Source: a virus (Duplodnaviria > Heunggongvirae > Uroviricota > Caudoviricetes). Taken from it: 22,822 nt of DNA. Each line of letters opens with the position of its first letter. Position 1 is the first letter of the stretch. Made by a program: the position numbers and the translations under genes. Below, in pieces: positions 472-19,081 of this stretch. The DNA is taken from IMG/VR virus record IMGVR_UViG_2645727821_000016; one strand, 5' to 3'. The notes under the pieces were generated by a model that worked only from the letters and a program-made list of their open reading frames with translations, made no database searches and was not told the DNA's origin.

Positions 472-630
472 AATGACGCCCTCTGGTGGTTTCTAAATAA
501 CCCACCACCGACGATGCCAATCATCTGGTGGTGAACTGTGCAGGGTTGGCATAACCGGGAAACCGACCGGCGCGGATCTCTCCGCCCCCACACAGCCCAC
601 CATAATTCAGATGTGCGCGTGCATACGACA

Positions 631-654
631 ATAAAAAACACGCTCGCGGCGTGT
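631..654 (-). terminator. Putative rho-independent terminator downstream of int (minus strand)
   Basis: Inverted repeat acacgc/gcgtgt (638-643 and 649-654) with a 5-nt loop; the adjacent A-run on the plus strand gives a U-tract after the stem on the minus-strand transcript. It lies about 90 bp past the int stop. Confidence 0.45.
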
Positions 655-741
655 ATCTGTCGCGGTTTCTATCCGGGATGCCAATCCCGACGCCAGATTT
701 TGCTGGCGTGCGCAGACTATAATCCCGGACGGTTATTTTTG

Positions 742-4915: not shown

Positions 4916-5100
4916 TGCCAGCATCCTTTTTGTATCGGACGTAAACGGGCCAACATTGAAAGAATGCATATTTTATTTAATAGCTCCCGTTCGTGTTTTC
5001 TCTTGTTAATGGCATCTTCAGTAAATACAGGGTTACTGATAGTGACACCAATTTCAAAACAACCTTCAGACGTATTAACGTTTGGTAATAACGTTTCCAT
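4912..5100 (-). CDS. Small hypothetical early protein
   Basis: Internal ATG at 5100 with GAGGA about 8 nt upstream; a 62-aa product in the leftward early operon; stop overlaps the downstream start. Confidence 0.3.
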   Translation of the reverse strand: METLLPNVNTSEGCFEIGVTISNPVFTEDAINKRKHERELLNKICILSMLARLRPIQKGCWQ

Positions 5101-5665
5101 TATCGCGTCCTCAACAATGAATTTTGTGATGCGGTGCCTGGTGCTTCCAGGTGACGTTAACCAGTTAACAATTAACGCCGGATACAGAGAATCCACCCAT
5201 AACACTGTTTTTGGTTTTAACTGTTCCGCGTGCGCTTAGCCGCATTCACCGCATCACAAAATTCACTTTAAAAAGGGCGGCAGAGCAGTCACGGAGTAAA
5301 ACTGATACCGCCAAACGTCACCAGAAAATTGATAACAGAGGGCGTTGCAGCGGGGTTGTCACTTAAGCGTATGGTCAACCTGACAACCCGGTGTCCTCAA
5401 CGGTGGAAGGAATAACCCCGCCATACTTACCGCCGCGCCATTTCGCGGATTGCCACAACCGGAAGCGCACGGTCGACGAAAATTTAACGACAGGCTATCT
5501 ATGAACCAGCTACCTCGCCGTGCGCTTTCGCGTTATGGTCTGACTTTTCAGGGAAATATCCTTTCAGTAAACTGTCAGTGCCGGATGCTCACCCGTGTCC
5601 GGCGCACGCACTCCACCTCACCCGTGGAGAACTCCTTAATTACCAACCTTAGCTTCGTTGGTTAG

Positions 5666-12059: not shown

Positions 12060-12269
12060 TTTATATTGGCGAGGTGACGGGAGTTAAGTAGAATTGCTGC
12101 GGGTGCTTGAGGCTATCTGCCTCAGGCATGAACACCAAAGGCAGATAGAGAAAAGCCCCAGTTAATATTACGCGTCCTGCAAGACGCTTAACATTAATCT
12201 GAGGCTCAATCTATGAACGGCAAATCTAGGTTAGCCTCTTACGTGCCGAAAGGCAAGGAGAAGCAGGCT
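12060..12269 (+). promoter_or_regulatory. hok mRNA leader region (probable location of antisense Sok-type RNA and an upstream overlapping frame)
   Basis: Structured leader upstream of hok: hairpin tgagg-ctatctg-cctca and a complementary aaaggcagatagag segment. The 5' segment gaggtgacggg (12071-12081) is partly complementary to the hairpin flank ccctcgccacctc (12447-12459) downstream of hok, fbi/tac-like. An in-frame upstream start at 12213 extends the frame to 70 codons. Confidence 0.35.
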
Positions 12270-12425
12270 ATGAAGCAGCAAAAGGCGATGTTAATCGCCC
12301 TGATCGTCATCTGTTTAACCGTCATAGTGACGGCACTGGTAACGAGGAAAGACCTCTGCGAGGTACGAATCCGAACCGGCCAGACGGAGGTCGCTGTCTT
12401 CACAGTTTACGAACCTGAGGAGTAA
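12270..12425 (+). CDS. hok: Hok/Gef-family type I toxin (HokD/RelF-like), 51 aa
   Basis: ATG at 12270 with AAGGAG at 12255-12260. The product MKQQKAMLIALIVICLTVIVTALVTRKDLCEVRIRTGQTEVAVFTVYEPEE has the single transmembrane helix and conserved Cys/Glu tail of Hok-family toxins. Confidence 0.85.
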   Translation: MKQQKAMLIALIVICLTVIVTALVTRKDLCEVRIRTGQTEVAVFTVYEPEE

Positions 12426-13931: not shown

Positions 13932-14306
13932 ATGCTCATAGATTTGGTTTTACCTTACCCGCCGACGGTGAACACTTACTGGCGACGCCGTGGCAGCACA
14001 TATTTTATCTCGGAGGAGGGAAAGCGTTATCGCCGGGCTGTGGCGCTTATTGTTCGCCAGCAGCGGCTGAAATTAAGCCTGTCCGGAAGGCTGGCGATAA
14101 AGGTGATTGCAGAGCCACCGGATAAGCGTCGTCGCGACCTGGACAATATCCTGAAAGCACCGCTGGATGCGCTGACGCATGCGGGAGTGTTAATGGACGA
14201 TGAGCAGTTTGATGAAATCAATATCGTTCGTGGTCAGCCAGTATCTGGTGGACGTATGGGGGTGAAGATTTACCCCATAATGCATGAAGAGCAGGTCAAA
14301 AAATGA
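13932..14306 (+). CDS. rusA: Holliday junction resolvase RusA
   Basis: 124-aa protein with the RusA hallmarks LPYPPTVNTYWRRRG and DKRRRDLDNILKAPLDALTHAGVLMDDEQ, aligning to E. coli RusA by recall. Confidence 0.9.
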   Translation: MLIDLVLPYPPTVNTYWRRRGSTYFISEEGKRYRRAVALIVRQQRLKLSLSGRLAIKVIAEPPDKRRRDLDNILKAPLDALTHAGVLMDDEQFDEINIVRGQPVSGGRMGVKIYPIMHEEQVKK

Positions 14307-15124
14307 AACTGGAAGATTTACCGAAATACTACTCCCCAAAATCCCCTGGCCTGACCGATGCATCGGCCTCAACGTCAAAAGATGCGCTGAGTATCACTGA
14401 TGTGATGGCCGCGCAGGGCATGACACAGAATCGGGCTGAGATGGGGTTTTCTGCGTTCCTGGGGAAAATGGGCATCAGTATGAATGACAGGGCGCGGGCA
14501 ACAGAATTACTGGCAGATTATGCACTCAGTCGGTGCGATCGTGTGGCGGCGTTGAGAAAACTTCCGGCAGAAATAAAACCGGTAGTGATGCGCATTATGG
14601 CTTCGTATGCGTTTGAAGATTATGCCCGTAGCGCGGCGAGCAAAAAACAGTGCCCTTGCTGTCACGGAAAAAAATTTATTGAAAGCGAGGTTTTTACAAA
14701 CAAGATCCAGTATCCGGATGGTAAGCCACCAGTGTGGGCAAAGTGCACAAAAGGCGTGTATCCGTCTTACTGGGAAGAATGGAAAAAAGTCAGGGAGGTG
14801 GTAAAAGTTGCCTGTCCGGAGTGTGGCGGAAAGGGTGAGGTTTCCACCGCCTGTAAGGATTGCCGTGGGCGTGGTGTCGCCATTCATCGTGAAGAGTCGG
14901 TAAAACGTGGTATGCCTGTTATCAGAGATTGCCAGCGTTGTGGTGGTCGTGGCTGTGAAAGGCTGCCATCAACGGAGGCATTTAATGCCATATGCAAAGT
15001 GACGAGTGCTATCACGCTTGATACGTGGAAAAAATCAGTGAAACGCTTTTACGATACGTTGGTGGTTCGGTTTGACATTGAAGAGGCATGGGCGGAGCGG
15101 CAGTTAAAGAGGGTAACGCGATAG
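14303..15124 (+). CDS. Late-gene antitermination protein Q-like (zinc-finger-rich)
   Basis: Start overlaps the rusA stop (ATGA). Several CxxC pairs are present (CPCCHGKK, CPECGGKGE, CKDCRGRG, CQRCGGRG). It is the last nin-region gene and is followed directly by a pR'-like promoter and terminator. The Q family is inferred from position and recall. Confidence 0.65.
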   Translation: MKLEDLPKYYSPKSPGLTDASASTSKDALSITDVMAAQGMTQNRAEMGFSAFLGKMGISMNDRARATELLADYALSRCDRVAALRKLPAEIKPVVMRIMASYAFEDYARSAASKKQCPCCHGKKFIESEVFTNKIQYPDGKPPVWAKCTKGVYPSYWEEWKKVREVVKVACPECGGKGEVSTACKDCRGRGVAIHREESVKRGMPVIRDCQRCGGRGCERLPSTEAFNAICKVTSAITLDTWKKSVKRFYDTLVVRFDIEEAWAERQLKRVTR

Positions 15125-15129
15125 TGTTG

Positions 15130-15157
15130 TTGATTTTTCCCGAATCTGTGGTAAATT
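15130..15157 (+). promoter_or_regulatory. Candidate late promoter pR' (TTGATT - 16 nt - TGgTAAATT)
   Basis: -35 TTGATT at 15130-15135 and an extended -10 TGgTAAATT at 15149-15157, 6 bp after the Q-like stop. Lambda pR' has the same TTGACT/TAAATT architecture. Confidence 0.45.
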
Positions 15158-15206
15158 TGCTCTAACGATGGGCGTTTTATGCCTGACGTTAGAAGATTTT
15201 TTACAC

Positions 15207-15228
15207 CCCGCCGCCTGGCGGGTTTTTT
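15207..15228 (+). terminator. Rho-independent terminator (tR'-like) downstream of the candidate pR'
   Basis: cccgcc-gcct-ggcggg followed by tttttt. Confidence 0.55.
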
Positions 15229-15348
15229 ATGACTGAAATCGCGTCAGTACAGTAAACGCGCTGGTGGCGGTGAATACCTGTCTTTCAGCTTGCTGGCTTT
15301 TTCGACAAGAGTTATTGGTGTGTCACGTTAACCGGAAAAGGAAAAGAC

Positions 15349-15546
15349 ATGCTAAAACAGCAGGATATGACAGAAACCGCCAGAGTGGTGTTTAATGAAT
15401 TAAGCGTTACCGACCCGGCGACAGTCGGGGAGATAGCGCAGAATACTTACCTTTCACGCGAACGCTGCCAGTTAATACTGACTCAGCTGGTTATGGCGGG
15501 TCTGGCAGACTATCAGTTCGGTTGTTACAGACGCCTTCCGCAGTGA
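15349..15546 (+). CDS. Small hypothetical protein (possible winged-helix-like)
   Basis: 65-aa ORF with AAAGGAAAAG upstream of the ATG. It is followed by a perfect 12-bp inverted repeat (ggctggtgggtg ... cacccaccagcc) at about 15571-15602. Confidence 0.4.
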   Translation: MLKQQDMTETARVVFNELSVTDPATVGEIAQNTYLSRERCQLILTQLVMAGLADYQFGCYRRLPQ

Positions 15547-15696
15547 AGGCTTTTTTATTTGTGGTAAATGGGCGGCTGGTGGGTGTTAGGGGCACCCACC
15601 AGCCATCTGCTCATGCGTCCGGATCACAAGCAAACCTCAGGCCCACTGCTTTGCGCAAAAGCAGAATGAGCCTATCAGAGACAGGCTTAATGATCC

Positions 15697-16746
15697 ATGC
15701 TTAATACTGTAAAAATATCCAGTTGTGAGTTAATCAACGCCGACTGCCTGGAATTTATCCGGTCGTTACCCGAAAATTCTGTTGACCTGATAGTCACGGA
15801 CCCGCCGTACTTTAAAGTGAAGCCTGAGGGCTGGGATAACCAGTGGAAGGGCGACGATGATTACCTGAAGTGGCTGGACCAGTGTCTGGCGCAGTTCTGG
15901 CGGGTGCTGAAACCTGCCGGAAGTCTTTACCTGTTCTGTGGTCATCGCCTGGCATCTGATATCGAAATCATGATGCGTGAACGCTTCAGTGTGCTGAACC
16001 ATATTATCTGGGCGAAGCCGTCCGGACGCTGGAACGGATGCAACAAGGAAAGCCTGCGGGCGTATTTCCCCGCCACAGAGCGCATTCTGTTCGCGGAACA
16101 TTATCAGGGGCCGTATCGTCCGAAAGATGCCGGGTATGCGGCGAAGGGCAGTGCACTGAAACAGCATGTGATGGCCCCGCTGATTTCTTACTTTCGTGAT
16201 GCGCGCGCGGCCCTGGGGATAACGGCAAAACAGATTGCAGATGCCACAGGAAAGAAAAACATGGTGTCGCACTGGTTCAGTGCCAGTCAGTGGCAGCTAC
16301 CGAATGAAAGCGATTATCTGAAATTACAGGCGCTGTTTGCCCGGGTGGCAGAAGAGAAGCATCGGCGTGGTGAACTGGAAAAGCTCCACCACCAGCTGGT
16401 GGATACGTATACCTCACTGAACCGGCAGTATGCGGAGCTGCTGAGTGAATATAAACATCTGCGGCGGTATTTTGGCGTGACGGTGCAGGTGCCGTATACC
16501 GATGTGTGGACGCATAAACCGGTGCAGTTCTATCCCGGGAAACATCCGTGCGAAAAACCGGCAGAAATGCTGCAGCAGATAATCAGCGCAAGTAGCCGTC
16601 CTGGTGATCTGGTTGCGGATTTTTTCATGGGGTCGGGTTCAACGGTAAAAGCGGCGATGGCACTGGGGCGTCGTGCGATTGGTGTTGAGCTGGAGACCGG
16701 ACGTTTTGAGCAGACAGTCAGGGAAGTTCAGGATTTAATCGTTTGA
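15697..16746 (+). CDS. Orphan DNA methyltransferase, beta-class N6-adenine/N4-cytosine type (DPPY motif)
   Basis: Motif IV VTDPPYF lies near the N-terminus and motif I FFMGSGST near the C-terminus, the IV-before-I order that defines beta-class amino-methyltransferases. No restriction endonuclease candidate is adjacent. Confidence 0.88.
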   Translation: MLNTVKISSCELINADCLEFIRSLPENSVDLIVTDPPYFKVKPEGWDNQWKGDDDYLKWLDQCLAQFWRVLKPAGSLYLFCGHRLASDIEIMMRERFSVLNHIIWAKPSGRWNGCNKESLRAYFPATERILFAEHYQGPYRPKDAGYAAKGSALKQHVMAPLISYFRDARAALGITAKQIADATGKKNMVSHWFSASQWQLPNESDYLKLQALFARVAEEKHRRGELEKLHHQLVDTYTSLNRQYAELLSEYKHLRRYFGVTVQVPYTDVWTHKPVQFYPGKHPCEKPAEMLQQIISASSRPGDLVADFFMGSGSTVKAAMALGRRAIGVELETGRFEQTVREVQDLIV

Positions 16747-16795
16747 AACGGATGAGATTGCAGAATTAATTACGCACCATTATTATTCTGCTCCC

Positions 16796-16871
16796 GGCCC
16801 TTTAGCTCAGTGGTGAGAGCGAGCGACTCATAATCGCCAGGTCGCTGGTTCAAATCCAGCAAGGGCCACCA
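16796..16871 (+). tRNA. tRNA-Ile (anticodon CAU, ileX/ileZ-like; tRNA-Met not formally excluded)
   Basis: 76-nt cloverleaf: acceptor GGCCCTT/AAGGGCC, D-arm GCTCAGTGGTGAGAGC, anticodon loop CTCATAA, T-loop GGTTCAAATCC, 3' ACCA. Close to E. coli tRNA-Ile2 by recall. Confidence 0.85.
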
Positions 16872-16878
16872 TCACATA

Positions 16879-16955
16879 CCGCCATTAGCTCATCAGGAAA
16901 GAGCGCCAGCCTTCGAAGCTGGTTGCGCGGAGTTCGGGTCCCCGAAGGCGGTCCA
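16879..16955 (+). tRNA. tRNA-Arg (anticodon UCG), somewhat degenerate (argN-like)
   Basis: Acceptor CCGCCAT/AAGGCGG with one mismatch; anticodon stem-loop CCAGC-CTTCGAA-GCTGG; T-loop GTTCGGGTCC with one mismatch in the T-stem; ends in CCA. Confidence 0.6.
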
Positions 16956-16968
16956 TTATCTGTATCCT

Positions 16969-17045
16969 GCGTTGTTAGCTCAGCCGGACAGAGCAATTGC
17001 CTTCTAAGCAATCGGTCACTGGTTCGAATCCAGTACAACGCGCCA
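16969..17045 (+). tRNA. tRNA-Arg (anticodon UCU, argO/argU-like)
   Basis: Acceptor GCGTTGT/ACAACGC; D-arm TAGCTCAGCCGGACAGAGC; anticodon stem-loop ATTGC-CTTCTAA-GCAAT; T-arm ACTGG-TTCGAAT-CCAGT; 3' GCCA. Confidence 0.85.
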
Positions 17046-17060
17046 CACTTATTTTCCCTG

Positions 17061-17089
17061 GCTCGCTTTTGCGGGCTTTTTTTTAAATG
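17061..17089 (+). terminator. Rho-independent terminator after the tRNA cluster
   Basis: gctcgc-tttt-gcgggc (one G-U pair) followed by an 8-nt T-run. Confidence 0.55.
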
Positions 17090-17090
17090 T

Positions 17091-17306
17091 CTCACAATTC
17101 AGGCGGTTGACTGTTGTCTGGTTTGCGGGGAGTTTGTTAAAAGAAACTGGCATGGTGAATCCCCCTGTGCGGAGGGGCAATCAGCGAGTAGGTATATGGG
17201 ATAATCGCGGATTCAGGTGCTGGTACTGAATTCACCGGGAGGCACCCGGCACCATGCAATGGCACATAGCGCCACTCTCCAGCCCCTCTCCGGAGGGGCT
17301 TTTCTG
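17091..17306 (+). repeat. Structured noncoding unit, copy 1 (promoter-like TTGACT, nested hairpins, terminator): candidate small RNA or attenuator
   Basis: Blocks shared with copy 2: ctcacaattcag, ttgac, tttgttaaaa, catggtgaatccccctgNgcggaggggc, caccgggaggcacccggcaccatg, and agcccctctccggagggg followed by a T-tract (terminator hairpin at 17281-17306). Confidence 0.5.
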
Positions 17307-17493
17307 TGCCGGATACATCACAGTTTCTGGAACCTTAGGTACTACAGTATCAGTCAGGGTGCTATATTTTCAGATGTGATGAAAGCCTGTCAGCAGGCAG
17401 GGCGTATCGGAAATGACCCAGTAGAGAAAACGTTGACTCAGATACCGGTGCTGAGTTACCGGGAAACCGGCATCACATGACCGCTATCCTTCC

Positions 17494-17521
17494 AGGCCCA
17501 TCCGCTCCGGTGGGCCTTTTT
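17494..17521 (+). terminator. Rho-independent terminator between the two repeat units
   Basis: ggcccatccg-ctc-cggtgggcc followed by ttttt. Confidence 0.5.
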
Positions 17522-17558
17522 ACTGCAGAAAACAGGTTCCCCGTTAAATGCTATGTTG

Positions 17559-17792
17559 CTCACAATTCAGTAAGTTGACAGTTGCCTGTCAGACTGGGCA
17601 TTTGTTAAAAAAATTTCGCATGGTGAATCCCCCTGAGCGGAGGGGCGACTGGTGACGGTATAATCTCTGATTATCAAAACGAGAATGACGCGGGTTTAGT
17701 GGCACCGGGCTGAACTCACCGGGAGGCACCCGGCACCATGTGCATGATGATACAGATACGCGGCTTTAGCCCCTCTCCGGAGGGGTTTTCTT
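17559..17792 (+). repeat. Structured noncoding unit, copy 2 (TTGACA, TATAAT, nested hairpins, terminator)
   Basis: Same conserved blocks as copy 1 in the same order; TTGACA at 17575-17580; TATAAT at 17659-17664; terminator gcccctctccggagggg plus ttttctt at 17768-17792; another hairpin gcccgcg...cgcgggc at about 17807-17829. Confidence 0.5.
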
Positions 17793-18020
17793 GTGGGCAA
17801 AAAAAGCCCGCGCTGGGAGACGCGGGCGGCAAGGAATAAACAATAAAACGTGAAGTAATATTTCAGCTGGCGAATAATACCCCATAGTAATCACTCTGCG
17901 CAACTGCGCGGTCTTTTTCGAATTGCGGGCTGTCGTCTCTCTTCTGCCATTGTCCTGTAACTTCCGGACTTCAGCCCGCTCCTTATTTTACTCACAATAT
18001 TATCCCGGCCGGGAGGATTC

Positions 18021-18248
18021 ATGGCATTTAAACACTATGACGTGGTCAGGGCGGTATCGCCGTCAGACCTTGCGAAACGACTGACACAAAAACTGAAGGA
18101 GGGCTGGCAGCCGTTTGGTAGTCCGGTGGCCATAACCCCTTATACCCTGATGCAGGCGATTGCAGCAGAAGGTGATGTGGTGGTCAGTGGTGCAACTGAG
18201 CCGGATTGGTACTACGTCATCGTACTGGCCCGGCATTCCAGGCCATAA
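18021..18248 (+). CDS. DUF1737-like small protein (commonly found upstream of holin in lambdoid late regions)
   Basis: 75-aa ORF with GGGAGG upstream; its 5' context ctcacaatattatcccggccgggaggattcATG repeats the ctcacaat and ccgggagg elements of the upstream units. The DUF name is by recall. Confidence 0.65.
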   Translation: MAFKHYDVVRAVSPSDLAKRLTQKLKEGWQPFGSPVAITPYTLMQAIAAEGDVVVSGATEPDWYYVIVLARHSRP

Positions 18249-18451
18249 AAGACAGTCTGGCAGTGGGACTAAATGCACTGACGCTGATGGATATTACCAA
18301 AAATGTAACGTATGGCGTTGAGATAGAAAGTCTGGCGCTGGAGATAAATGCACCGGCATCATCATAAAAAGTGAGCCAGTCAAATGGAAGGTATCGTTAA
18401 ACTCACCGGTAGTGTCAGTGGGTCGTCTGAGACGCTTGCATGAGTTATCAG

Positions 18452-18482
18452 AGCCATCAGTAGTTAACTGGTGGCTTTTTTA
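18452..18482 (+). terminator. Rho-independent terminator immediately upstream of the holin gene
   Basis: agccatcag-tagttaa-ctggtggct (one G-U pair) followed by tttttta. Confidence 0.5.
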
Positions 18483-18516
18483 TTGTTTTCAGCTTCCGGA
18501 TAACGGGAGACGGGGT

Positions 18517-18732
18517 ATGGACCAGATGGAAAAAATCACAACAGGTGTGTCATACACCACGTCAGCGGTGGGAACGGGCTACTGGTTCCTGCAGTTGCTG
18601 GACAGGGTTTCCCCGTCTCAGTGGGCGGCAATAGGCGTGCTGGGGAGTCTGCTGTTTGGGCTGCTGACATATCTGACTAACCTGTATTTCAAAATCAGAG
18701 AGGACCGTCGTAAGGCGGCACGGGGAGAGTAA
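18517..18732 (+). CDS. S: Class II pinholin, phage 21 S21-like, with dual start motif
   Basis: The product [71 protein letters not shown] is near-identical over its C-terminal two-thirds to S21 as I recall it. Two closely spaced Met codons (M1, M4) are typical of the holin/antiholin dual start. The track's longer ORF starting at 18412 would span the terminator. Confidence 0.9.
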
Positions 18733-18736
18733 TTCA

Positions 18737-19081
18737 ATGACTCAAAACTATGAACTGATTGTGAAAGGGATCCGCAATTTTGAGAATAAAGTTACGGTAA
18801 CTTTAGCATTACAGGACAAAGAACGCTTTGACGGTGAAATTTTTGACCTGGACATCTCGCTGGACCGTGTTGAAGGTGCTGCGCTGGAGTTTTATGAGGC
18901 AGCGGCCAGAAGGAGCATCAGACAGGTCTTCCTGGATGTCGCTGCCGGGTTATGTGAAGGGGATGAGCAGTCGCCGGAAAAGCGCCCCGTAATTTTAGAG
19001 GCGCAGAATGTATGGATAACCTACAAAGGAAAGCTACCGGGAAGGATTACTGGTTCCCTGAAGACTCCGCCGAAATGGTAG
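18737..19081 (+). CDS. YdfR-like protein (DUF1327-like) inserted between holin and endolysin
   Basis: 114-aa ORF starting 5 nt after the holin stop; the N-terminal half MTQNYELIVKGIRNFENKVTVTLALQDK...ALEFYEAAARR resembles E. coli Qin YdfR by recall. Confidence 0.55.
   Translation: MTQNYELIVKGIRNFENKVTVTLALQDKERFDGEIFDLDISLDRVEGAALEFYEAAARRSIRQVFLDVAAGLCEGDEQSPEKRPVILEAQNVWITYKGKLPGRITGSLKTPPKW

What the first reader, a model, noticed from the sequence alone, without database searches (positions are those of the whole stretch)
17091..17792. Two tandem paralogous structured noncoding units occupying the locus where Stx phages carry stx (between the tRNA cluster and the lysis genes)
Each copy spans about 215-235 nt. 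Both have a TTGAC(T/A) -35-like hexamer, then catggtgaatcccccTG(t/a)GCGGAGGGGC (a hairpin whose loop differs between copies while the stem is kept), then caccgggaggcacccggcaccatg, and finally the terminator gcccctctccggagggg(c) plus a T-tract. The 5' catggtg and 3' caccatg segments are complementary, suggesting a closing helix. There are no long ORFs. Conserved structure with divergent spacers suggests function as small RNAs or cis-acting attenuators rather than junk.
Basis: seen in the sequence. Interest (0 to 1): 0.65.

Follow-up and report, generated by a model that had tools for sequence, protein, structure and literature searches.

The report
Tandem STnc100-family prophage small RNA genes
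The two repeated blocks are copies of an already catalogued prophage small-RNA family (Rfam STnc100, related to EcOnc27/sRNA103 and PasD), so the finding is real but not new; a third, diverged copy lies between them, and all copies share a pseudoknotted core fold.

Summary
Both blocks are full-length, high-scoring matches to Rfam RF02076 (STnc100): 17121-17311 at 136 bits and 17589-17798 at 161 bits, against a threshold of 47. The window is a lambdoid prophage of ExPEC strains such as UTI89. The blocks lie in the late operon between Q/methylase/three tRNAs and the DUF1737 remnant and holin.

Unit 2 is the same element that Stx2 phages carry just after stx2B (EcOnc27/sRNA103, Hfq-bound in published work). 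Unit 1 and the "spacer" occupy the slot where stx2AB sits. The spacer is a third, diverged copy (17374-17522) with the same fold in different letters. A fourth copy lies on the minus strand between dicF and dicB (5123-5260), and also in E. coli K-12.

Covariation across about 90 distinct homologues supports helices P1, P2, P4 and P5. It also supports a pseudoknot between the strand after P2 and the P4 loop, which the Rfam structure line does not show.

Most likely these are independently transcribed, Hfq-dependent, trans-acting sRNAs. Each has a conserved structured 5' scaffold, a variable single-stranded tail (the probable seed) and an intrinsic terminator. The family is already known. What the scaffold does is still open.

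The parts
17091..17149 (+). Unit 1 upstream block. Contains CTCACAATTCAG, TTGACT (17107-12), TTGTCT (17114-19, the likely -35) and the extended -10 TGTTAAAAG (17135-43).
   Evidence: Conserved between the two units and the Stx2-phage copy. The PasD2 homologue has TTGACT-N18-TAAAAA-N7 ahead of its RNA-seq 5' end. The consensus promoter scan did not call it.
17150..17305 (+). Unit 1 predicted sRNA, about 155 nt. P1 17150-57/17250-57; P2 17162-77; pseudoknot 17180-86 with 17218-24; P4 17209-33; P5 17235-49; single-stranded tail 17258-81; terminator 17282-17302.
   Evidence: Rfam STnc100 136 bits; core model R1 97 bits; fold; terminator scan; coordinates.
17360..17368 (+). Middle unit extended -10 (TGCTATATT).
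   Evidence: Read from the sequence. It lies 5 nt upstream of P1, the same geometry as in the other units.
17374..17522 (+). Middle, diverged unit, about 149 nt. P1 17374-81/17471-78; P2 17386-97 (CCUG-UCAG-CAGG); pseudoknot 17405-10 with 17445-50; P4 17435-57; P5 17459-70 (CCGG-GAAA-CCGG); tail 17479-94; terminator 17495-17521.
   Evidence: Rfam 30.1 bits, E 1.7e-4, below the gathering score. R1 26.2 bits, E 3e-5. The MFE fold reproduces the architecture, z -2.6. Present in 673 of 5426 E. coli genomes.
17559..17617 (+). Unit 2 upstream block. Contains TTGACA (17575-80), TTGCCT (17582-87) and the extended -10 TGTTAAAAA (17603-11).
17618..17792 (+). Unit 2 predicted sRNA, about 175 nt. It is the orthologue of the copy downstream of stx2B (EcOnc27/sRNA103). 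P1 17618-25/17734-41; P2 17630-45; pseudoknot 17649-54 with 17703-08; P4 17692-17717; P5 17719-33; tail 17742-68; terminator 17769-89.
   Evidence: Rfam 161 bits; R1 94 bits; about 95% identity to Stx2a phage L002 4003-4250.
5123..5260 (-). Fourth copy of the core fold, between dicF (5326-5275) and the dicB start codon (5100). It has no terminator of its own.
   Evidence: R1 47.7 bits, E 8e-11; fold z -4.7. The same element is in K-12 Qin (L060 2450-2587, 45.7 bits).
14303..15124 (+). Q-type antiterminator gene. A tR'-like terminator follows at 15207-15222. This marks the start of the late operon.
   Evidence: Pfam PF03589, E 2e-49; RefSeq annotation; terminator scan.
16796..17077 (+). Three phage tRNA genes (CAT, TCG and TCT anticodons) and the post-tRNA hairpin 17060-77. 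Stx2 phages share this hairpin just before stx2A.
18021..18732 (+). DUF1737 remnant of nanS-p (18021-18248) and a P21-type holin (18517-18732). This is the downstream boundary of the sRNA slot.
   Evidence: Pfam; RefSeq annotation.

Best explanation
The region 17091-17792 holds three tandem, independently transcribed small-RNA genes of the STnc100 family (Rfam RF02076; relatives are EcOnc27/sRNA103 and PasD1/2). They lie in the 'moron' slot of a lambdoid prophage late operon. The gene order is Q, tR', methylase, three tRNAs, the sRNAs, nanS-p remnant, holin, lysozyme, Rz.

Each gene has four parts:
1. A sigma-70 promoter with an extended -10.
2. A structured core of 105-125 nt whose first nucleotide is the first base of the closing helix P1. 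The core is a multi-helix junction of P2, a variable P3, P4 and P5, and the strand after P2 pairs with the P4 loop to form a pseudoknot.
3. A single-stranded tail of 16-28 nt that differs between copies.
4. An intrinsic terminator.

In the lysogen each RNA is probably made from its own promoter, ends at its own terminator, binds Hfq, and pairs through its tail with host or prophage mRNAs. Three copies would then give three different target sets. After induction, Q-modified polymerase would read through all the terminators.

What is shown and what is inferred:
- Shown here: family membership, the fold and its covariation, the terminators and the genomic position.
- Inferred from homologues: transcription start, Hfq dependence, and the tail acting as the seed.
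- Inferred from general principle only: the scaffold buries the 5' end and so stabilises the RNA.
For: Family membership. Both units are full-length hits at 136 and 161 bits against a gathering score of 47. The middle unit is a weaker hit with the same architecture.

Fold.
- On a MAFFT alignment of 44 distinct cores from many Enterobacterales genera, 96% of cells are paired against 42-52% in slid controls. Eleven pairs show compensatory changes, and 0 of 500 shuffles reach the observed score.
- On 89 distinct, mostly IMG/VR, sequences, 94.8% are paired against 42-46%. Fifteen pairs and 274 cells are compensatory, now including P2.
- The pseudoknot averages 6.5-6.7 bp for a sequence's own partner against 4.5-4.65 bp for partners from other sequences. 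In two independent sets, 0 of 5000 permutations reach that.

Independent genes. There is a terminator after every unit. The RNA-seq 5' end of PasD2 is the G of GCAUGGUG, 7 nt after TAAAAA, the same geometry as here.

sRNA function.
- PasD1/2 are 172-173 nt, depend on Hfq for stability, and form RIL-seq chimeras through a UGUGAG seed in the tail.
- EcOnc27/sRNA103, the orthologue of unit 2, is Hfq-CRAC and Northern positive.
- EDL933 copies are transcribed and one is Northern-positive.

Context. Q, the tRNAs, DUF1737 and the holin are confirmed. Synteny with an Stx2a phage is shown.
Against: - There are no expression, Hfq-binding or target data for these copies or for this strain background.
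- The consensus promoter scan called no promoter at its thresholds.
- The terminator U runs are short (UUUUCU), which is weaker than typical Hfq-binding 3' ends.
- PasD levels change little in an hfq mutant by RNA-seq in one condition (table S2).
- No direct, validated target is known for any canonical STnc100 copy.
- The near-invariant unpaired nucleotides and the pseudoknot exceed what a simple stabilising 5' hairpin needs.
- The same core occurs without a terminator ahead of dicB and ahead of kdgM-type porin genes, so 'sRNA scaffold' may not be its only or primary role.
- The MFE of unit 2 folded from the predicted start is not the consensus fold.
Confidence: 0.7

Rival explanations
1. The conserved pseudoknotted core is itself the functional unit: a ligand- or protein-binding domain, riboswitch-like or a decoy. 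On this reading the sRNA-like tails are secondary. The core would sense or sequester something and control whatever lies 3' of it: a seed plus terminator, dicB, or a porin gene.
For: - Unpaired positions are near-invariant across many genera: GGUGAAUC, the NNGCG(G) loop, the A before P5 and the AGGCA loop.
- The pseudoknot covaries.
- The core occurs as a leader without a terminator before dicB, in the window and in K-12.
- It also precedes KdgM-family porin genes in Kosakonia, Raoultella, Enterobacter and Klebsiella, and small envelope proteins.
- Only 28 of 53 genomic copies have a recognisable terminator within 140 nt.
Against: - The downstream genes show no consistent function.
- About half the copies end in a terminator with no ORF after them.
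- The diverged middle unit and PasD change or lose the 'invariant' P2 and P5 loops yet persist.
- No ligand or partner is known.
- No alternative-pairing expression platform is evident.
Confidence: 0.15
2. The units act mainly in cis as a stack of terminators or insulators. They would keep the lysis genes silent in the lysogen, with Q antitermination overriding them after induction.
For: The scan found 16 terminator-like sites in 15100-18800 against 3.4 expected from shuffles. The units lie between pR'/tR' and the holin.
Against: - A terminator hairpin alone would be enough, and this reading does not explain a covarying 110-nt core with a pseudoknot.
- Family members occur outside late operons.
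- Homologues accumulate as discrete Hfq-bound RNAs.
Confidence: 0.07
3. The core is a processing or punctuation module. It would be recognised by RNase III, RNase E or RNase P so that RNAs can be cut out of long early or late transcripts, in the way tRNAs are.
For: - It lies next to tRNA genes in many loci.
- It sits between dicF and dicB in a polycistronic RNA that is known to be processed.
- P1 extends to about 21 bp in the dicF-dicB copy.
Against: - The mapped RNase III site of the dicBF transcript is 5' of DicF, not in this element.
- The 5' end of PasD coincides with a promoter-proximal start, not a cleavage site.
Confidence: 0.05
4. The blocks are degraded remnants of a protein-coding gene. 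RefSeq places a partial 'hypothetical protein' pseudogene antisense to unit 1.
For: PGAP annotates a partial CDS at L001 6091-6216, which is window 17140-17265 on the minus strand. It annotates similar ORFs over PasD1/2.
Against: - Substitutions are compensatory in helices.
- Indels between copies are 15, 1, 3 and 2 nt.
- Variation is concentrated in loops and in P3.
- There is no Pfam family for it.
Confidence: 0.01

Closest known systems
STnc100 (Rfam RF02076), known as EcOnc27 in E. coli O157 Sakai and sRNA103 in EDL933
   Same: Units 1 and 2 match the full model well above threshold. Unit 2 is syntenic with, and about 95% identical to, the copy 75 nt downstream of stx2B. It has the same promoter block, core, terminator and downstream sequence up to nanS-p.
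   Different: This is a non-Stx ExPEC prophage, and the stx2AB slot holds two further family members. The tails differ between copies. The pseudoknot, the transcription start at the first base of P1, and the copy in the dicF-dicB spacer are not part of the Rfam description as printed, and I did not find them in the papers I read.
PasD1/PasD2 (EPEC E2348/69; Pearl Mizrahi 2021; Zhu, Shabalina and Storz 2026 preprint)
   Same: They occupy the same prophage slot between Q and the esterase/holin genes. They share P1, P2, the pseudoknot and P4, and the order core, tail, terminator. They are 172-173 nt and start at the G of GCAUGGUG.
   Different: PasD lacks P5 and has a shorter P2 loop. It scores below the Rfam threshold (38-41 bits). 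Its UGUGAG seed is absent from all three tails here. PasD copies are reported to be distal to one another, not tandem.
AsxR/AgvB anti-sRNA 'dyads' of EHEC lambdoid prophages (Tree et al. 2014)
   Same: They are Hfq-binding sRNAs placed between the late promoter and the lysis genes, and they pair with an STnc100-type partner.
   Different: No AsxR or AgvB match exists in the window or next to the Stx2a_95 copy, even at E up to 10. There is only an unclassified candidate on the minus strand at 17799-17887.
IpeX (3' UTR of nmpC, DLP12 prophage of K-12)
   Same: It is a non-coding regulator placed after a moron gene, between Q and the lysis genes (recalled from Castillo-Keller et al. 2006, not re-read here).
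   Different: It is not homologous. Neither Rfam nor my core model gives any hit in the K-12 quuD-nmpC-essD region.
Tandem duplicated sRNAs with a shared scaffold and diverged seeds (OmrA/OmrB, PrrF1/PrrF2, Qrr1-4)
   Same: Neighbouring paralogous genes, each with its own promoter and terminator. The structural part is conserved and the pairing region is diverged.
   Different: In those families the conserved part is the seed or the terminator end and the RNAs are small and simple. Here the conserved part is a large pseudoknotted 5' domain and the 3' tail varies.

Membership tests
STnc100 (Rfam RF02076) | Score at or above the curated gathering threshold (47 bits) over the whole model. | tested here: met
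   Unit 1 scores 136.3 bits and unit 2 scores 161 bits, both over model positions 1-206 of 206. The middle unit scores 30.1 bits, below threshold.
STnc100 (Rfam RF02076) | Consensus secondary structure: a closing helix and internal hairpins maintained by compensatory change. | tested here: met
   96.1% and 94.8% of cells are paired against 42-52% in slid controls. There are 11 and 15 pairs with changes on both sides, and 0 of 500 shuffles reach the observed score.
STnc100 (Rfam RF02076) | Intrinsic terminator at the 3' end. | tested here: met
   Terminators at 17281-17300, 17494-17517 and 17768-17787, each followed by a T run.
STnc100 (Rfam RF02076) | Own promoter, making each unit an independent sRNA gene. 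| tested here: inconclusive
   The consensus scan called none. By eye there is TTG(T/C)CT-N18-TGtTAAAA(G/A)-N6-7-G. The geometry matches the PasD2 promoter and its mapped 5' end and promoters of copies in other genera.
STnc100 (Rfam RF02076) | Accumulates as a discrete RNA that associates with Hfq. | not testable with these tools
   Only homologues have data: EDL933 Northern and RNA-seq, EcOnc27 Hfq-CRAC, and PasD RIL-seq and Northern.
PasD1/PasD2 | PasD sequence, including the UGUGAG seed in the tail and absence of P5. | tested here: not met
   All three units keep a P5 hairpin and none has UGUGAG in its tail. They are relatives of PasD, not PasD itself.
Riboswitch / cis-regulatory leader | A conserved aptamer consistently placed upstream of functionally related genes, with an expression platform. 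| tested here: not met
   The structured domain is conserved. But 28 of 53 copies end in their own terminator, and the ORFs that follow are heterogeneous: holin, KdgM porin, NlpC/P60, small lipoproteins and DicB. Ligand binding cannot be tested here.
Processive antiterminator RNA (HK022 put type) | Acts in cis so that polymerase reads through downstream terminators. | not testable with these tools
   The indirect evidence is against it. Homologues end at the terminator 20-40 nt after the core: PasD is 172-173 nt and EcOnc27 is Northern-positive.
IpeX | Homology to the K-12 nmpC 3' UTR element. | tested here: not met
   No Rfam STnc100 or R1 hit in L057.

The most novel reading that the evidence does not exclude
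The STnc100 core is a discrete, portable, pseudoknotted RNA domain, not merely the 5' part of one sRNA family. Its parts are P1, P2, a variable P3, P4 with a loop-to-strand pseudoknot, and P5. It is conserved across Enterobacterales and their phages and is used in at least three settings:
- at the 5' end of seed-bearing sRNAs, often in arrays of 2-5;
- between dicF and dicB, including in E. coli K-12;
- ahead of kdgM-type porin and other envelope genes.

On this reading the domain has a specific molecular partner, a protein or small ligand, that has not been identified.
Probability: 0.25. Interest if true: 0.6.

Novelty: already known. Interest (0 to 1): 0.3.

Why it matters
The finding as written would have been caught by a routine Rfam scan, so it adds one more array of a known prophage sRNA family. 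It still matters for three reasons.

1. The family sits immediately after stx2B. SNPs that predict haemolytic uraemic syndrome map to what I read as its extended -10 and discriminator. A correct gene model (promoter, +1, seed tail) therefore makes that association testable.

2. Published work notes that it is unclear why Hfq-binding sRNAs cluster between the late promoter and the lysis genes. The array structure shown here is a shared scaffold with different tails, in up to 4-5 copies in the phage contigs I examined. This suggests a cassette system for diversifying regulators.

3. I did not find the pseudoknot, or the presence of the same core in the K-12 dicF-dicB spacer, described in the papers I read. 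Both give a tractable model, K-12, for asking what the scaffold does.

Tried and rejected
- **IpeX.** I suspected that IpeX (nmpC 3' UTR, DLP12) was a family member because of its position. Neither Rfam nor my model gives a hit in K-12 570000-580000, so I rejected this.
- **AsxR/AgvB partner.** I looked for one next to unit 2, as in the EHEC 'dyads'. There is no hit in the window or in the Stx2a_95 phage, even at E up to 10.
- **Coding remnant.** Rejected on covariation and on indel lengths that break a reading frame.
- **TTGAC(T/A) as the -35.** Its spacing to the only good -10 is 25 nt. The neighbouring TTG(T/C)CT fits at 18 nt.
- **Consensus promoter scan.** It found nothing in the units, so the promoter call rests on homology with PasD2.
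- **Targets of the three tails inside the window.** I found only a 10-nt match at 16957-66, which is chance level. Host targets could not be searched.
- **Fold of unit 2 from the predicted +1.** The MFE is a non-consensus structure. With the longer Rfam span it gives the consensus. I rely on covariation, not on MFE.
- **Literature search for the conserved motifs as text.** It returned only a primer in PMC12370729.
- **Cis-attenuator and antiterminator readings.** Considered and ranked low; see the rival explanations.
Full report
**1. What is there**

The two blocks align over 255 columns at 82% mean column identity. The blocks of perfect identity are the putative promoter region, GCATGGTGAATCCCCCTG.GCGGAGGGGC, CACCGGGAGGCACCCGGCACCATG and the terminator.

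A gathering-threshold Rfam scan of the whole window identifies both blocks as full-length members of RF02076, STnc100 ('Gammaproteobacterial sRNA'). The hits are 17121-17311 at 136.3 bits and 17589-17798 at 161 bits, against a threshold of 47.

**2. Where it is**

The 801-nt segment is 100% identical to prophages of ExPEC/B2 strains such as UTI89, S88, IHE3034 and the type strain ATCC 11775.
- 2869 of 5426 complete E. coli genomes carry at least one related copy (median 2, maximum 12).
- 353 genomes carry this whole array.

RefSeq annotation of UTI89 and Pfam give this gene order: RusA, Q-type antiterminator (14303-15124, PF03589), small ORF, DNA methyltransferase, three tRNAs (16796-17045), the array, a DUF1737 fragment (remnant of nanS-p), a P21-type holin, lysozyme and Rz. 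A tR'-like terminator follows Q at 15207-15222. The stretch 15100-18800 has 16 terminator-like sites against 3.4 expected. This is the late-operon leader, the classic position for morons.

**3. Relation to stx**

In Stx2a phage Stx2_95 the order is Q, methylase, the same three tRNAs, stx2A, stx2B, one STnc100 copy, nanS-p, holin. Pairwise alignment shows three things:
- The last tRNA and the hairpin after it (17060-77) are shared.
- Everything from the CTCACAATTCAG block of unit 2 through the nanS-p start is about 95% identical.
- Unit 1 plus the 'spacer' occupies the interval that holds stx2AB.

So unit 2 is the orthologue of the RNA that follows stx2B. That RNA is EcOnc27 in Sakai and sRNA103 in EDL933, and it is Hfq-CRAC and Northern positive (PMC7873438 and PMC12711010). 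Only unit 1 and its neighbour 'replace' stx.

**4. A third and a fourth copy**

A permissive Rfam scan gave a sub-threshold STnc100 hit inside the 'spacer' (17350-17523, 30.1 bits, E 1.7e-4). My own core-only covariance model R1 also finds it (26 bits, E 3e-5). R1 was built from 44 distinct homologues.

The MFE fold of this middle unit reproduces the family architecture with different letters:
- P1: AUGUGAUG/CAUCACAU
- P2: CCUG-UCAG-CAGG
- P4: GACUCAG-loop-CUGAGUU
- P5: CCGG-GAAA-CCGG

The core is followed by a free tail and a terminator (17495-17521). An extended -10 (TGCTATATT, 17360-68) lies 5 nt upstream of P1. The middle unit occurs in 673 of 5426 E. coli genomes in two variants. In strain CREC-629 it again lies between two canonical copies, in a different neighbourhood next to iraM.

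R1 also found a fourth copy on the minus strand at 5260-5123 (47.7 bits, E 8e-11). It lies between DicF (5326-5275) and the dicB start codon at 5100. The same element is in the dicF-dicB spacer of K-12 Qin (45.7 bits).

**5. The fold**

A motif scan of one genome per species returned 54 loci in many Enterobacterales genera. Every one I ran through Rfam, 33 of the 54, was classified as STnc100. A second scan of IMG/VR, which left P2 free to vary, returned 120 loci with 87 distinct cores.

Architecture: P1, 8 bp or more; junction AAUC; P2; a short strand; variable P3; P4; one A; P5; then the 3' strand of P1.

Pair counts:
- On a plain MAFFT alignment, 96.1% of cells are paired against 42-52% when the 3' partners are slid. 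Eleven pairs and 83 cells have changes on both sides, and 0 of 500 shuffles reach the observed score.
- On the model-fitted alignment of 89 distinct sequences, 94.8% are paired against 42-46%. Fifteen pairs and 274 cells are compensatory. That alignment leans towards the structure.
- P2 was fixed by my first search pattern. In the second set it covaries: CCCCU/AGGGG, CCUUUC/GAAAGG, UGCG/CGCA, CUCACC/GGUGGG and CGCUU/AAGCG.

**6. A pseudoknot**

In every copy the strand just after P2 is complementary to the loop of P4, and the two change together.

| Copy | Strand after P2 | P4 loop |
|---|---|---|
| Unit 1 | AUCAGCG | UGCUGGU |
| Unit 2 | CUGGUG | CACCGG |
| Middle unit | UAUCGG | CCGGUG |
| dicF-dicB copy | CAGUUAA | UUAACUG |
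| PasD2 | AAUGAUC | GAUCAUU |

Examples from other loci are AAGCCACAG/UUGUGGCUU, GAAUCCGGA/UUCGGGUUU and AGACUGACAAA/UUUGUCAGUCU.

I compared each sequence's own strand and loop with strand-loop pairs taken from different sequences. The own-pair duplex averages 6.5 bp against 4.5 bp in the genome set and 6.67 bp against 4.65 bp in the IMG/VR set. In each set, 0 of 5000 permutations reach the observed mean.

The Rfam structure line has no such pairing. The 2026 preprint on PasD and STnc100 used RNAalifold and does not mention a pseudoknot.

**7. Gene model**

In many genera a sigma-70 promoter ends 6-8 nt before P1. For PasD2 the RNA-seq 5' end (NC_011601 741157) is the G of GCAUGGUG, preceded by TTGACT-N18-TAAAAA-N7.

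By the same geometry the window units should start at about 17150, 17374 and 17618 and end at their terminators. That gives RNAs of roughly 155, 149 and 175 nt, against 172-173 nt for PasD. The generic promoter scan did not call these sites, so this step is an inference.

The tails between P1 and the terminator differ completely between the copies:
- Unit 1: AAUGGCACAUAGCGCCACUCUCCAG
- Middle unit: GACCGCUAUCCUUCCA
- Unit 2: GCAUGAUGAUACAGAUACGCGGCUUUAG

They are unpaired in the consensus fold. In PasD the RIL-seq seed (UGUGAG) lies in this tail.

**8. Most likely mechanism**

These are three independently transcribed, Hfq-associated, trans-acting sRNAs that share a structured 5' scaffold and differ in their seed-bearing tail. 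They are probably expressed in the lysogen from their own promoters and read through by Q-modified polymerase after induction.

- Shown here: family identity, the fold, the terminators and the position.
- Inferred from homologues: transcription start, Hfq dependence and the tail as seed.
- Inferred from general principle only: because the RNA starts at the first base of P1, the 5' end is buried, which should protect it from 5'-end-dependent decay. I did not test this.

**9. Rivals**

- *Cis-acting terminator stack.* It fits the terminator density. It does not explain a covarying pseudoknotted core, or copies outside late operons.
- *Riboswitch-like or protein-binding domain.* It is favoured by near-invariant unpaired nucleotides and by copies that lead directly into ORFs without a terminator: dicB; KdgM-family porin genes in Kosakonia, Raoultella, Enterobacter and Klebsiella; NlpC/P60; and small lipoproteins. 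Against it, the downstream genes are heterogeneous, about half the copies end in their own terminator, and PasD and the middle unit alter the 'invariant' loops.
- *Processing module.* It is suggested by the neighbouring tRNAs and the polycistronic dicBF RNA. But the mapped RNase III site lies 5' of DicF.
- *Coding remnant.* Covariation excludes it.

**10. Comparison with the known, and verdict**

The units are members of STnc100. They are relatives of PasD but not PasD, they are unrelated to IpeX, and they have no AsxR/AgvB partner.

Tandem arrays are a family trait: 2-4 copies in the Superficieibacter, Pantoea, Kosakonia and E. albertii loci and up to 4-5 in IMG/VR contigs. This contrasts with the distal arrangement reported for PasA and PasD.

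The finding itself is already known and rates low to moderate interest. I did not find the following described in the papers I read: the third copy, the corrected gene model, the pseudoknot, and the presence of the core in the K-12 dicF-dicB spacer. They bear on the open question of what the scaffold does.

Noticed in passing
window 5123-5260 (-); L060 2450-2587 (E. coli K-12 NC_000913.3 1649449-1649586): A copy of the STnc100 core fold (P1, P2, pseudoknot, P4, P5; no terminator) fills the spacer between dicF and dicB, 23 nt upstream of the dicB ATG. It is present in the window and in K-12 Qin. P1 extends to about 21 bp. The dicBF paper I read does not describe a structure there.
   Followed up: partly
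window 17180-86 with 17218-24; 17649-54 with 17703-08; 17405-10 with 17445-50: A covarying pseudoknot joins the strand after P2 to the P4 loop. It is absent from the Rfam structure line. It is supported by permutation tests in two independent sequence sets.
   Followed up: yes
window 17799-17887 (-), terminator 17827-17806: A candidate small RNA on the minus strand converges on unit 2. It ends ...CCUUGCCGCCCGCGUCUCCCAGCGCGGGCUUUUUUU. It closely resembles the EPEC RIL-seq candidate 'E2348C_1409.E2348C_1408.IGR' (seed CUUGCG) and is conserved next to the Stx2-phage copy. Rfam gives only weak hits, the best being OmrA-B at 25 bits.
   Followed up: partly
L002 4046-4062 (Stx2a phage Stx2_95), equivalent to window 17600-17617: The two mutations reported as HUS-predictive in O157:H7 lie at +90 and +103 after stx2B. 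They fall in what I read as the extended -10 (TGTTAAAAA) and the T run between the -10 and +1 of the STnc100 gene. They could therefore act through its transcription.
   Followed up: partly
L009, L010, L024, L029, L039, L042 (Kosakonia, Raoultella, Enterobacter, Klebsiella sp.): A sub-type of the core (GGGGUCAUGCUGA...) lies about 90-200 nt upstream of a KdgM-family porin gene (PF06178, E 8e-72). No terminator is detectable between them, so it looks like a chromosomal leader, not a phage sRNA.
   Followed up: partly
L022, L012, L014, L134, L096, L069, L082, L028, L061: Arrays of 2-5 tandem STnc100-type units recur in other genera and in IMG/VR phage contigs, often just upstream of a holin. Examples are three copies at a 257-bp period in Superficieibacter electus and four or five copies in IMG/VR contig L134.
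   Followed up: partly
window 17140-17265 (-) = L001 6091-6216; also L058 4198-4439, L059 3801-4199: RefSeq/PGAP places partial or whole 'hypothetical protein' CDS antisense to STnc100 and PasD genes and annotates no ncRNA there. These are probably spurious ORF calls on conserved RNA genes.
   Followed up: partly
window 17195-17204: The P3 loop of unit 1 contains the string tatgggata, which a RIBO-seq study listed as the Shine-Dalgarno region of EDL933 STnc100_10 (ribosome coverage value 3.2). It holds a minimal AUG-GGA-UAA ORF. The conserved GGAGG motifs in P2 and P5 might also attract ribosomes.
   Followed up: no
window 524-722 (-), 12101-12275 (+), 5275-5326 (-): Other Rfam hits in the prophage: a C4 antisense RNA with its a1/b1 target and isrK (a P1/P7-type immunity module), a sok antitoxin with hokD, and DicF.
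   Followed up: no
window 15100-18800: The late-operon leader is unusually dense in terminator-like hairpins: 16 found against 3.4 expected from shuffles. They include one right after the tRNA cluster (17060-77) that Stx2 phages share upstream of stx2A.
   Followed up: no
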